This document shows, in pieces, positions 24,001 to 27,000 of a stretch of DNA of 64,000 nucleotides. A program made the position numbers. The stretch is from Sphyrna mokarran. Its lineage: Eukaryota. The DNA is taken from contig JAGIQG010000034.1 of assembly GCA_024679065.1 (NCBI GenBank), positions 13,516,001 through 13,580,000 of the forward strand. Direction: 5' to 3'. The stretch's first letter is position 1; every line of letters starts with the position of its first letter.

Positions 24001-27000
24001 ATGACCAGTTTAGCAAGTTACTAAAGAGCTATTCTTGTACCAATGGAACTCTGTCTCACTGAAGATCAGCTCCTTTAAGAAAGTCAGTGGAAGTTTGAGA
24101 AATATGAGTTGTATATAAAGCAGAATTTTGAACTGACATTTATACTAACAAACCCTTTCTCTCTTTCCGCAGCAATTTGGTAAAATCATAGATGTAGAAA
24201 TTATATTTAATGAGCGTGGCTCCAAGGTAAGCACATCTTTAAGATTCTACATGCCAACAATCATTGCAGTCATTGTTTTTTGTAAGACTGAGGAAGCAGT
24301 TTGCTCACTGGCTATTTTAAAACTATTTCCAGTTAACATTTTCCAAAATCAGACTTTTTTGCTCTTCATTTCCACAATGTTGTAGCCTAGGTGGACAGTA
24401 GTTTTCAGCATCTATCTGATCTCTTCGCCAGTCTATATTTTGTAGCACTTCCTGGTAGCTGCTCTTTATGATGTAGCCATGTATTTTTTATTGACTCTTC
24501 ATTTACTCATGTCTTTTAACTGTTCACTTCACTGAATCTTTACCTAAATCAGAACTCAGAATAATAGCCATTTGTCAAGCCTTCCGTCTGGTTGATTTTA
24601 TATACTAATTAGCTGTATCTGTAGTCCAGACTCATTTTACTTGCATGCTAGTACTTGATGCTAGGAATCAATCTTCTATTCCTAAACCTGCCTATTTTTT
24701 CAGTTGAATAAATTTCTGGCTGATGGTCACTGAAGTTGGAAAATGTTGCTAGAATTGGTTTTTAATCACAGGGACAATTTGGTATAAAAGACTAATTTTG
24801 TTTGAAAGCCATTTATAGATTTTTTTCAGCTGGGCTATTCCATTTCCTCAAGAATATCACTGTGGAAATCATTTTTATTCATCTCTCCTCCTCCTCCCTG
24901 CTTGTTTTTAAATTATACAGCAGTCCGTTGTCAAGCTGCAAACATTTGTTTAATTCTGCAACAAATTTTAAAAAGGAATTTCCAAGGCATTTTCTTCTCA
25001 TTTATTGTTTCATAGATTGCTGGCAATTCTTTAAATCACAGCTGCTAGTTAAAACTATTTGTGCAGCATTGTAGTTTGGAAGGAGGAAAAGATATGATCA
25101 TCAAGAAAAAAACATGGCCGTTGCTGCATAAGTAATGTTCCCCCTCGAAATGTTCTTTATTAAACATGGCCTGTTTATTCCATTACACACAACTATTCAA
25201 TTCTTTAGGCAGCACAGGTGCAGCTTAGTGTGTTCTATGGGAAATTCAACTATTCAGCTGCCCTTATGTAATTCGAGTATAAACTATTACTTACTAAATA
25301 AATATTTCCCATATGAGATGTTATACTGTGTTAGTGCGTGTTTGTTTTTGCCAACACAGGCTGTTTAAACTTCATAGTGGAGCTGCTGAAGAAGTGCAGG
25401 TGAATTTTAGTCGAGATAACAATTTGCACACTTGTGACCCCGACTGTCATTTTATTTGCTACCATTGTTTGAAATGGAGAGGAGGTCACGGGGGAAGAGT
25501 CAAGAAGACAAAGCTGAGGTTTCTTAAGGTTCTCTTCCCCTTTCTTCTCCCAGTTTAAAAAAGAAAATAATTAAGCTCTTGCCTTTGTAAAGAGAACAAG
25601 ATGCTGCAGATTTCTCACATTTACAGATTCAGAATACTGGCAGAAATACATAAGCAACTGCAAATGCACCAGATCACATACTCAGTCGTCACATCAGTAA
25701 CCTTGCATCTCTGCTTATGGATCTTTACTGGTGTTGAGGGAAATTCTACACCAGCCAGCAATGTGATAACCAGCTCAACGTAGGGCTGAGAACACCAAAG
25801 ACAGGTCTGGGAATCAATGTTGAGCTGGTTATCACATTGCTGGCTGGTGTGGAATTTCCCTCGACACCAAGACAGATCCATGAGCAGAAACACAAGGTTA
25901 CTGAGGTGACAACTGGGTATGTGATCTGATGCATTTGTAATTATGAGTTTCTGCGTGTAATCTACCCAATTCCTAGACCTGTCTTTGGTGTTCTCAGTCC
26001 CACAGAATCCAATGTAGAATAGGTTCATGTAAACGCTTCAAAGAGCAATTTCTTGAATTGGCAGTCACTAAAATACTGCAGATGCAGGGAATCTTTAAAA
26101 CAAAAACAGAGAGTAATATGGAAATAGTCATCAAATCAAGCAGTATCTGTGAAGAAGCATGTCAGTCGATGGTCTGATGACCTGAAACAACAACATATCT
26201 GGGTTTCTGTGTTGGTATTTGCTGCTTTTGCTGAGAAAGCTCAGCAGAAGCTGATTCAGAGTCAATGATTCTGGTGTTCTGTACTGAATCAGGTCTCCTA
26301 TTTCTACATTAGATTGTAAGAGAGTAGCAGAAAGGATGAAACTAGCAATAAACAGGGAAATTGGGCATGGAGTCAATTATCTGCAGATAAAAGGTAAATG
26401 TAATTTAAACCAGTGGCAAATGTCGTGACTTCTTTATCTAGTGATTAGCAACCTGTTAATGACCTCTTCCTTGGCATTAAAAAAGTTTAAGAACTTCCAA
26501 TTTAAAATTTCTCCTAAATGGATAAACTTTGTGCTTTTACATTGAAGAAGTGGTTCTAATAGCAATAATTGTGTCGCCCTCAGTAGCATTTTCTAATCTA
26601 ATTATAAATACCCAACACCATTGTGAATCCATCAATTGACCATTGTGTCCATTTAAAAATAATTACACCAGCGTAGCCAGCACAACCTTTTCAGTTTAGA
26701 AATCGCATGTCTCCATCAGGCATCAATTAACGGCATCAGTATGAAGGACAGCAGATTCCCAGATTTTCTTATTACAATGCGATGGTCTAGTTAGAGAGAG
26801 TAACCTTGAAAAAAAGCTCCTCAGAAAGATTTGGCGATCTCTGTGGGGTGAATTTCAACCATCCCACATTAATTTCAATCTGGCACCAAGTCAAGGGGAC
26901 CGGCAGGAATCCAGCAATGATGTTATCAAACTGTGTCAGCAGCCATTCACATTGAAGAATTCTCACACACAACATCAGGAAGTGAAATGCACCATTATCT

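What the first reader, a model, noticed from the sequence alone, without database searches (positions are those of the whole stretch)
25640..26003. Interleaved A-B-A'-B' inverted repeat able to form two competing long duplexes
Seen: arm A (25640-25779) pairs with A' (25819-25954) over about 135 bp, including a perfect 32-bp core (25748-25779/25819-25850). The roughly 39-nt loop B is itself complementary to B' (25968-26003, perfect 23-bp core 25786-25808/25975-25997), only 13 nt past the stem base. The two halves are circular permutations (A-B versus B-x-A), which a simple MITE or foldback does not explain. Both helices cannot fully coexist, so the pre-mRNA could adopt alternative folds 1.4 kb downstream of an RRM exon. 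Alternatives are a template-switch scar or an unusual transposon family. The mismatches I checked are mostly transitions, compatible with neutral decay.
Basis: partly seen in the sequence, partly recalled or inferred. Interest (0 to 1): 0.7.

Follow-up and report, generated by a model that had tools for sequence, protein, structure and literature searches.

The report
Template-switch inverted copy in shark intron
A 373-base stretch in an intron of a shark RBFOX splicing-factor gene carries two interlocked inverted repeats, which look like the old, decaying scar of a single DNA-copying error, not a working RNA switch.

Summary
A (25631-25779) pairs with A' (25819-25963) at 125 of 145 aligned positions. 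B (25780-25814) pairs with B' (25969-26003) at 32 of 35. Nothing else in the 64 kb resembles it.

The order A-B-A'-B' is what results when a reverse-complement copy of one contiguous stretch (A + 4 nt + B') is written into the A|B' junction. [quoted passage not shown] The 4 nt CAAT between B and A' appear only in inverted form, as that model predicts.

The two helices do not compete. The A/A' hairpin gives -221 kcal/mol. A fold forced to contain B/B' is 91 kcal/mol worse.

Mismatches are mostly transitions (16 of 23). They show no strand bias (8 G:U against 8 A:C on the + strand), which fits neutral decay.

The host is a shark rbfox1-like gene. The main rival is a nested, inverted self-insertion of an uncatalogued ~185-bp repeat. 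I could not exclude it, because no shark genome or repeat library was searchable.

Verdict: an ordinary but unusually long example of a known mutation type. Interest is low to moderate.

The parts
25631..25779 (.). Arm A. In the model this is the resident (ancestral) sequence left of the switch point, up to point 1.
   Evidence: Local alignment to the reverse complement of 25819-25963: 125 of 145 identical, one 4-nt indel.
25780..25814 (.). B, the first part of the inserted reverse-complement copy (copy of B'). It abuts A with 0 nt between and forms most of the 39-nt hairpin loop.
   Evidence: 35 nt, 32 of 35 complementary to 25969-26003.
25815..25818 (.). CAAT, the inverted spacer. These 4 nt of the copied stretch appear only in reverse-complement form; no forward ATTG stands at either junction.
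   Evidence: Sequence read; junction strings printed.
25819..25963 (.). Arm A', the second part of the inserted reverse-complement copy (copy of A).
25964..25968 (.). ACCCA, 5 nt at the return junction with no template in the model (filler).
   Evidence: Homology ends sharply on both sides. There is no TSD-like repeat of 4 nt or more with the left junction.
25969..26003 (.). B', the resident sequence right of the switch point (from point 4 to point 2).
25748..25850 (.). Hairpin tip: a perfect 32-bp stem (25748-25779/25819-25850) closing the 39-nt loop. It has no mismatch, whereas the distal stem has 20 in 113.
   Evidence: P = 0.0045 for no mismatch in these 32 positions, post hoc.
24173..24226 (+). 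54-nt RRM-coding exon of the host rbfox1-like gene. The element lies in the intron that follows it.
   Evidence: Translation and splice sites.
38653..38745 (+). 93-nt RRM cassette exon that ends the same intron, 12.6 kb downstream of the element.
17469..17612 (+). 144-nt upstream exon, used to identify the host lineage.
   Evidence: 100% identity over 100% of the query to Mustelus asterias RNA binding protein fox-1 homolog 1-like / 2-like isoforms.

Best explanation
The region is the scar of one local template-switch event during DNA replication or break repair, and it now decays neutrally. The ancestral intron held a contiguous, probably unique, stretch: A, then 4 nt, then B'. The growing strand left its template at the end of A (point 1). 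It resumed on the complementary strand just after B' (point 2). It copied backwards through B', the 4-nt spacer and A to the start of A (point 3), and then returned to the start of B' (point 4). The product is A | B-CAAT-A' | B'. Shown: 184 nt (25780-25963) are the reverse complement of both flanks of their own insertion point, and two inverted repeats interlock as a result. Inferred: that this arose in a single event, the direction of the event, and the untemplated nature of the 5 nt ACCCA at the return junction. Consequences: any rbfox pre-mRNA must carry a ~145-bp imperfect hairpin with a 39-nt loop. By established knowledge of ADAR and Dicer substrates this is a likely incidental target for A-to-I editing or dicing. 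That is inferred and untested. B' is a by-product of the geometry, not a competing arm. The perfect 32-bp tip may reflect a later classical quasi-palindrome correction at the hairpin apex (inferred).
For: (1) Geometry. The contiguous segment 25780-25963 is the reverse complement of 25631-25779 plus 25969-26003, at 157 of 180 aligned positions. Homology ends sharply at all four ends. One event explains all four blocks. Every other decomposition I tried needs two or more events. (2) It matches a described footprint. [quoted passage not shown] (3) Spacer prediction met. The central CAAT has no forward copy at either junction. A abuts B with 0 nt, as expected at a 1->2 junction. (4) A/A' and B/B' do not differ significantly in divergence (20 of 145 against 3 of 35, Fisher p = 0.58), which fits one origin. 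(5) No transposon hallmarks. There is no TSD of 4 nt or more at the insert junctions, and the printed ends of the unit and of the insert show no TIR. There is no tRNA-like head. No other copy exists in 64 kb (blastn word 7: other hits E >= 1; nhmmer --max: best E = 12), whereas a SINE-like family occurs at about 8 loci in the same window. (6) Neutral decay. There are 16 transitions and 7 transversions. G:U against A:C on the + strand is 6:7 in A/A' and 2:1 in B/B'. The two strands fold equally well (-227.1 against -224.6 kcal/mol). (7) Size is within the reported range. [quoted passage not shown]
Against: No outgroup or orthologous empty site could be examined, so the ancestral state and the single-event claim are inferred only. 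The genome-wide copy number of the ~185-nt unit is unknown. The 5 nt ACCCA at the return junction are unexplained, and I saw no microhomology at either junction. Type 3-1-4-2 made up only 1% of events in the human-chimp set, and 184 nt is far into the long tail of reported lengths. Divergence is uneven: 20 of 113 in distal A against 3 of 67 in core plus B (Fisher p = 0.0105, post hoc). One event plus uniform decay does not predict that. AGAAT occurs both at the first 5 nt of A and directly after B', which is unexplained. At the one direct shark mutation rate I found (7e-10 per bp per generation, 95% CI 1.4-14.1e-10, epaulette shark, PMC10587355), the K2P distance of 0.142 between arms means about 1e8 generations per arm. 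That is implausibly old. Either the rate here is higher, or the arms were not identical at birth.
Confidence: 0.55

Rival explanations
1. Nested self-insertion. A ~185-bp interspersed repeat (for example a SINE-like element moved by a LINE that leaves no target duplication) sat here as A+B'. A second full-length copy of the same family then landed inside it in the opposite orientation. The sequence outcome is the same A|B-A'|B' layout.
For: The layout is formally identical to the template-switch product. Both copies have the same two ends, as full-length members of a family would. The window is rich in interspersed repeats (about 8 loci of one SINE-like family), so unknown families are likely in this genome. 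In reverse-complement orientation the unit's end at 25621-25640 loosely recalls, from memory only, the ATTCTRTG-type tails of CR1-mobilised elements, many of which lack target duplications. The 14% arm divergence is no harder to explain this way than under the best explanation.
Against: There is no other copy in 64 kb even at nhmmer --max (best E = 12). There is no TSD at the insert and no visible TIR in the printed ends, no tRNA-like head and no Rfam hit. The host copy lacks the 4 nt that the insert carries exactly at the insertion point, which needs a coincident indel; only 1 other indel is seen over the 180 aligned positions. The inserted copy's matching end lacks the tail-like motif. No predicted protein of 30-242 aa in the large protein collection shares words with the ORF that spans the unit in both orientations. 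That is only weak evidence, because non-coding repeats are rarely present in that collection.
Confidence: 0.27
2. Two or more successive local events. An older hairpin A-loop-A' formed first, by a simple inverted duplication. A later template switch then copied the downstream 35 nt (B') into its loop.
For: B/B' (3 of 35 mismatches) and the stem tip (0 of 32) are less diverged than the distal stem (20 of 113), with Fisher p = 0.0105. This hints at two ages.
Against: The second event would have to replace the old loop almost exactly, since B abuts A with 0 nt and only 4 nt separate it from A'. It does not explain the perfect 32-bp stem tip without a third event. The A against B divergence difference is not significant (p = 0.58).
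Confidence: 0.08
3. The whole 373-nt composite is one member of an unusual palindromic transposon family that carries the interleaved layout as a family trait.
For: CAGAAT stands at 25630-25635 and again at 26003-26008, roughly bracketing the composite. This could be read as a 6-nt target duplication.
Against: The left AGAAT lies inside the A/A' homology, so it is not a flank. The printed ends of the composite show no convincing terminal inverted repeat. There is no second copy in the window. Nothing of the kind turned up in the 15 papers listed by my shark transposon search (listing only).
Confidence: 0.04
4. The structure is kept by selection as a functional RNA: a hairpin small-RNA precursor, or a structural switch acting on rbfox splicing. 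This is a claim about function and could sit on top of any origin.
For: It lies in a transcribed intron, on the sense strand. The 32-bp perfect stem tip with a 39-nt loop is better preserved than the rest (P = 0.0045, post hoc). Template switches in introns have given rise to primate miRNA genes (PMC10710096, abstract and opening text seen).
Against: There is no Rfam family at the gathering score; the best match is mir-4081 at 30.1 bits against a cut-off of 70. G:U against A:C is balanced, and the two strands fold equally well. The stem runs on for more than 100 bp past the ~35 bp preferred by the miRNA machinery (length preference as stated in PMC10710096). B/B' cannot compete with A/A'. Conservation, editing and small RNAs could not be tested.
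Confidence: 0.05
5. Assembly artefact: a chimeric palindromic long read.
For: Long-read library chimeras can create palindromes (recalled, not from a call).
Against: Such artefacts have near-identical arms. Here the arms differ at 23 of 180 positions with a transition bias and one indel, and the layout is not a simple palindrome.
Confidence: 0.01

Closest known systems
Template-switch mutation, four-point model type '3-1-4-2' (Loytynoja & Goldman 2017, PMC5453318)
   Same: A single reverse-complement fragment is copied from a region spanning both sides of the switch site. This gives two interlocked inverted repeats with the small spacer between points 1 and 4 inverted (passages). The block order, the 0-nt A|B junction and the inverted-only 4-nt spacer here fit it.
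   Different: The copied fragment is 184 nt. Described events are mostly tens of nt, with a longest reported event of 318 bp. There are 5 unexplained nt at the return junction. The case is old and diverged (14%) and was inferred from one genome, not from a polarised comparison. The host is a shark; in the top 8 of 66 papers holding both 'template switch' and 'shark', none concerned this mutation type (listing only).
Classical quasi-palindrome correction (Ripley-type template switching between imperfect inverted-repeat arms)
   Same: This process homogenises arms near the hairpin tip (abstracts of PMC8604942 and PMC13100816, search listing). It would account for the mismatch-free 32 bp next to the loop.
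   Different: It needs a pre-existing inverted repeat and cannot create the A-B-A'-B' layout. Its action here is an inference.
Intronic inverted-repeat pairs (for example inverted SINE pairs) as long double-stranded RNA and ADAR substrates
   Same: It works like these: a ~145-bp imperfect intramolecular duplex within a pre-mRNA intron (-221 kcal/mol).
   Different: It is not built from two transposon copies, as far as could be shown. Editing was not tested. The comparison rests on general knowledge, not on a call.
Template-switch-born miRNA hairpins (Monttinen et al. 2023, PMC10710096)
   Same: An intronic hairpin created in one step by template switching and expressed with its host gene (abstract).
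   Different: The stem is about four times the ~35-bp miRNA stem. There is no Rfam family match at threshold and no expression evidence.
MITEs, foldback elements and nested SINE insertions
   Same: A compact non-coding palindromic stretch in an intron. A nested inverted self-insertion would give the same block order.
   Different: No TIR or TSD was seen, there is no tRNA-like head, and no second copy lies within 64 kb. No repeat library was available.

Membership tests
Template-switch mutation, type 3-1-4-2 (four-point model) | One contiguous fragment (2->3) is the reverse complement of nearby local sequence | tested here: met
   25780-25963 is the reverse complement of 25631-25779 plus 25969-26003, at 157 of 180 aligned positions.
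Template-switch mutation, type 3-1-4-2 (four-point model) | The copied region overlaps both points 1 and 4, so two interlocked inverted repeats arise | tested here: met
   The order is A-B-A'-B', with A ending and B' starting at the insertion point. Definition taken from PMC5453318 passages.
Template-switch mutation, type 3-1-4-2 (four-point model) | The spacer between points 1 and 4 is present only in inverted form | tested here: met
   CAAT stands at 25815-25818. No forward ATTG is present at 25779|25780 or at 25964-25968.
Template-switch mutation, type 3-1-4-2 (four-point model) | A related genome shows the ancestral state without the inverted fragment | not testable with these tools
   No shark or other eukaryotic genome collection was available.
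Template-switch mutation, type 3-1-4-2 (four-point model) | The source sequence is local and unique, not a dispersed repeat | tested here: inconclusive
   No other copy exists in the 64-kb window. The rest of the genome was not searchable.
MITE / foldback / palindromic DNA transposon | Terminal inverted repeats at the ends of the mobile unit | tested here: not met
   I compared by eye the printed ends of the 185-nt unit, of the insert and of the composite. No TIR was evident.
MITE / foldback / palindromic DNA transposon | Target-site duplication flanking the insertion | tested here: not met
   The two insert junctions share no direct repeat of 4 nt or more. CAGAAT near the composite's ends overlaps the A/A' homology.
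MITE / foldback / palindromic DNA transposon | Multiple dispersed copies | tested here: inconclusive
   There is none in 64 kb. The genome was not searchable.
tRNA-derived SINE | tRNA-like head and a LINE-type or A-rich tail | tested here: not met
   ARAGORN found 0 genes in the window. Rfam gave no tRNA or SINE-related hit in 25300-26400 up to E = 10. No tail repeat is seen; the CR1-like tail resemblance at one end only is a recalled lead.
Known miRNA or other Rfam RNA family | Score at or above the family's gathering threshold | tested here: not met
   There were 0 matches at gathering in the window. The best sub-threshold match is mir-4081 at 30.1 bits against 70.
Two-state RNA switch | Two mutually exclusive folds of comparable stability | tested here: not met
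   -227.1 against -136.1 kcal/mol; the highest probability of any B:B' pair is 3e-63. Pseudoknotted coexistence was not modelled.

The most novel reading that the evidence does not exclude
The scar may have been co-opted. In this reading, the ~145-bp intronic hairpin with its preserved perfect 32-bp tip, and the loop-to-tail pairing B/B' stacked on it as a very long pseudoknot, form a conserved shark RNA element. It would sit in the intron before the autoregulated RRM cassette exon of an rbfox gene. It would yield small RNAs, or act as an editing or retention platform that tunes production of the splicing factor. A crude sum suggests both helices could largely coexist: opening 10 bp of the stem tip costs 23 kcal/mol, while B:B' gives -61 kcal/mol. 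That sum includes no loop or topology penalty.
Probability: 0.05. Interest if true: 0.6.

Novelty: new member of a known kind. Interest (0 to 1): 0.25.

Why it matters
If the reading holds, this is a clean and unusually long (184 nt) example of the rarest observed class of template-switch mutation. It lies in a lineage (sharks) where, in the limited listing I saw, the process has not been described. It shows how one replication error can install a 145-bp double-stranded RNA hairpin in the intron of a key splicing regulator, and that such a palindrome can persist through about 14% arm divergence. For the scan, it gives a simple rule: A-B-A'-B' interleaving is a mutational signature, not evidence of an RNA switch. 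It does not open a new biological question by itself.

Tried and rejected
**Searches that found nothing**
- Rfam on the whole window at gathering: 0 matches.
- Rfam on 25300-26400 up to E = 10: only sub-threshold miRNA-like hits, as any hairpin gives.
- Pfam on 4 ORFs over the region, including the 138-codon minus-strand ORF 25621-26037: only DUF6250 at E 0.044, 14.1 bits against a cut-off of 26.9. I treat the ORF as a chance by-product of the palindrome.
- Large protein collection searched with that ORF, as an indirect probe for a repeat family. Near lengths: 1 candidate, none scoring. Shorter lengths: no candidate. This is weak negative evidence only.
- nhmmer --max of 25780-25968 against the rest of the window: best E = 12.
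- ARAGORN: 0 genes.
- Tandem repeats in 23000-29000: 3 trivial rows, none in the element.

**Checks on the junctions and ends**
- TSD, TIR and microhomology at the junctions: nothing at the insert.
- Helitron ends: read by eye from the ends printed. The insert does not start with TC or end with CTRR in either orientation (motifs recalled).
- The 16-nt match of 25628-25643 to 9741-9756 has no extended similarity. I rejected it as chance.

**Models rejected**
- Snap-back (fold-back) synthesis at a break would give A-A' only, not B/B'.
- An RNA switch between two duplexes is rejected on energies.

**What stayed unchecked**
- Genome-wide copy number, orthologous introns, repeat libraries (Dfam, Repbase), RNA editing and small-RNA reads. 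No eukaryotic genome or read collection was on hand.
- Supplemental Figs S1 and S3 of PMC5453318 (drawings of all event types, and the length distribution), which I could not see.

**Exon handling**
- The exons of the host gene were never joined. Only exon 17469-17612 was searched, on its own.
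Full report
**1. What is there**

The region was read directly and scanned for repeats.
- Two inverted repeats interlock.
- A/A' match at 125 of 145 aligned positions, with 13 transitions, 7 transversions and one 4-nt indel.
- The 39 nt between the arms consist of B = 25780-25814 plus the 4 nt CAAT (25815-25818). B is complementary to B' = 25969-26003 at 32 of 35 positions, and all 3 mismatches are transitions.
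- Only 5 nt (ACCCA, 25964-25968) separate A' from B'.
- Chance is excluded. The blastn E-values are 1.5e-74 and 2.5e-8. The RNA folding z-score is -21.6, with 0 of 100 shuffles folding as well.
- In the whole window only three inverted pairs of 30 nt or more lie within 3 kb of each other. Two are these; the third is a pair of SINE-like copies.

**2. Context**

The window is not human.
- Three exons on the + strand encode parts of an RBFOX-type RRM: 17469-17612, 24173-24226 (54 nt) and 38653-38745 (93 nt).
- The first exon, searched on its own, is 100% identical over its full length to 'RNA binding protein fox-1 homolog 1-like / 2-like' isoforms of the shark Mustelus asterias. It is 96-98% identical to those of other sharks and rays.
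- The element lies 1,404 nt into the 14.4-kb intron between the 54-nt and 93-nt exons, so it is part of the sense pre-mRNA.
- The window has no N and no tRNA gene.
- It carries about 8 loci of one SINE-like family.

**3. The key to the layout**

Call the resident sequence O = A + 4 nt + B'. Its reverse complement is B + CAAT + A'. The observed string is A | B-CAAT-A' | (ACCCA) | B'. In other words, O has its own reverse complement written into the A|B' junction.
- That one statement accounts for all four blocks and for their 'circular permutation'.
- It accounts for the 0-nt abutment of A and B.
- It accounts for the sharp ends of homology at 25631, 25779|25780, 25963 and 26003.
- Every other decomposition I tried needs at least two independent inverted copies. 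I tried the middle as the original with both flanks copied, and the left or right half as the original.

**4. Match to a described mechanism**

[quoted passage not shown] It requires the copied 2->3 fragment to overlap both 1 and 4. It made up 1% of the high-confidence human-chimp events.
- Written out, its product is [3..1][rc(4..2)][rc(spacer)][rc(3..1)][4..2], which is A-B-rc(spacer)-A'-B'.
- The model predicts that the few bases between points 1 and 4 survive only in inverted form. That holds here: CAAT sits between B and A', and no forward ATTG stands at either junction.
- The copied fragment is 184 nt. [quoted passage not shown] This leaves room for the 5 untemplated nt.

**5. Do the two helices compete?**

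They do not, within nested secondary structure.
- The A-loop-A' hairpin alone gives -221.3 kcal/mol, and the 393-nt region gives -227.1.
- Forcing B/B' gives -136.1, which is 91 kcal/mol worse.
- The mean pair probability in the A core is 0.9996. The highest probability of any B:B' pair is 3e-63.
- On the sense transcript A' is made before B'. The hairpin is complete (-221.6) by the time B' appears.
B joins A directly and is only 4 nt from A', while a 35-bp helix is far longer than the gap its two ends would have to bridge at the stem tip (geometry, inference).
- A crude sum suggests partial coexistence as a pseudoknot is conceivable. Opening 10 bp of the stem tip costs 23.2 kcal/mol, and B:B' is worth -61.1. 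This ignores loop and topology penalties, and my tools do not model pseudoknots.
- As DNA, the hairpin is also strongly favoured (-127.7 kcal/mol, z -17.7).

**6. Selection or decay?**
- Of 23 mismatches, 16 are transitions.
- On the + strand the transitional mismatches split into 8 G:U and 8 A:C (6:7 in A/A', 2:1 in B/B').
- The minus strand folds as well as the plus strand (-224.6 against -227.1).
- So nothing indicates that pairing in the sense RNA was protected.
- No Rfam family reaches its threshold.
- One feature does not fit uniform decay. The 32 stem positions next to the loop have no mismatch, while the distal 113 have 20. P = 0.0045 for that placement, and 0.09 for a run of that length anywhere.
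- Distal A differs from core plus B at Fisher p = 0.0105. These tests are post hoc.
- A later classical quasi-palindrome correction at the hairpin tip would explain it. Arm homogenisation of this kind is described in the abstracts of PMC8604942 and PMC13100816 (listing).
- Selection on the tip, or chance, remain possible.

**7. Age**
- The K2P distance between the copies is 0.142.
- The only direct shark mutation rate I found is 7e-10 per bp per generation (95% CI 1.4-14.1e-10; PMC10587355, passages). At that rate each arm would need about 1e8 generations.
- That seems too old. I take it as a sign that the rate here is higher or that the copies were not identical at birth.
- It applies equally to the main rival. 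I report it as unexplained.

**8. The main rival**

A nested, inverted self-insertion of a ~185-bp interspersed repeat gives the same block order.

Against it:
- There is no other copy in 64 kb.
- There is no TSD at the insert, no TIR and no tRNA-like head.
- A 4-nt deficit in the 'host' copy falls exactly at the insertion point. Only one other indel is seen in 180 aligned positions.

For it:
- Shark genomes are repeat-rich.
- Some LINE-mobilised elements leave no target duplication (recalled).
- One end of the unit loosely recalls a CR1-type tail (a recalled motif, a lead only).

An indirect probe drew blanks. I searched the 138-codon ORF that spans the unit in both orientations against the large protein collection at near and shorter lengths. 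This is weak evidence.

No shark genome or repeat library could be searched, so I keep this rival at about 0.27 against 0.55 for the template switch. The lesser rivals are scored in their own sections: a multi-step local origin, a composite transposon family, a selected RNA, and an assembly artefact.

**9. Verdict**

The 'competing duplexes' interpretation is not supported.

I rate it a new member of a known kind. It is notable for its length, its host lineage and its position in an rbfox intron, but most likely an inert relic that forms an incidental long hairpin in the pre-mRNA.

Noticed in passing
window 38550-38752: The 93-nt RRM cassette exon (38653-38745) is ringed by RBFOX-type motifs. 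TGCATG stands at 38550 and 38616. GCATG at 38645-38649 runs straight into the CAG acceptor. TGCATG at 38747-38752 overlaps the 5' splice site. In mammals, skipping of the equivalent exon gives dominant-negative isoforms under auto- and cross-regulation (PMC3126832 passages). The shark gene seems to keep that arrangement.
   Followed up: partly
window 1-64000, + strand: TGCATG occurs 29 times on the + strand, against about 14 expected from base composition. There are three upstream of the 54-nt exon (23443, 23517, 23535) and one at 24642, inside a 13-nt tandem duplication at 24638-24664.
   Followed up: no
one search hit list (no window coordinates): Several shark and ray isoforms of this gene carry only the Fox-1 C-terminal domain (PF12414) and no RRM (PF00076). 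This is what annotated skipping of an RRM exon would produce.
   Followed up: no
window 39-240, 15650-15811, 16961-17234, 34848-35045, 45899-46100, 53326-53421; inverted at 44135-44209 and 54096-54170: About 8 loci of one SINE-like interspersed repeat, 71-87% identical to the reference copies. One copy ends about 235 nt upstream of exon 17469-17612. Other repeat pairs lie at 3488-3615/46869-46996 and at 47695-48024/60833-61155.
   Followed up: no
window 25621-26037, minus strand: A 138-codon stop-free frame runs through the whole palindrome. It has no Pfam match at threshold and no relative in the protein collection. I take it for a chance by-product.
   Followed up: yes
one search hit list, P0001 and P0002: Two proteins outrank the 100%-identical shark proteins in bit score, although they cover only 48% of the 48-residue query. 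They are a Diaphorina citri 'sex determination protein fox-1-like' and an unnamed metaclust entry. This may be a scoring oddity or repeated matching stretches.
   Followed up: no
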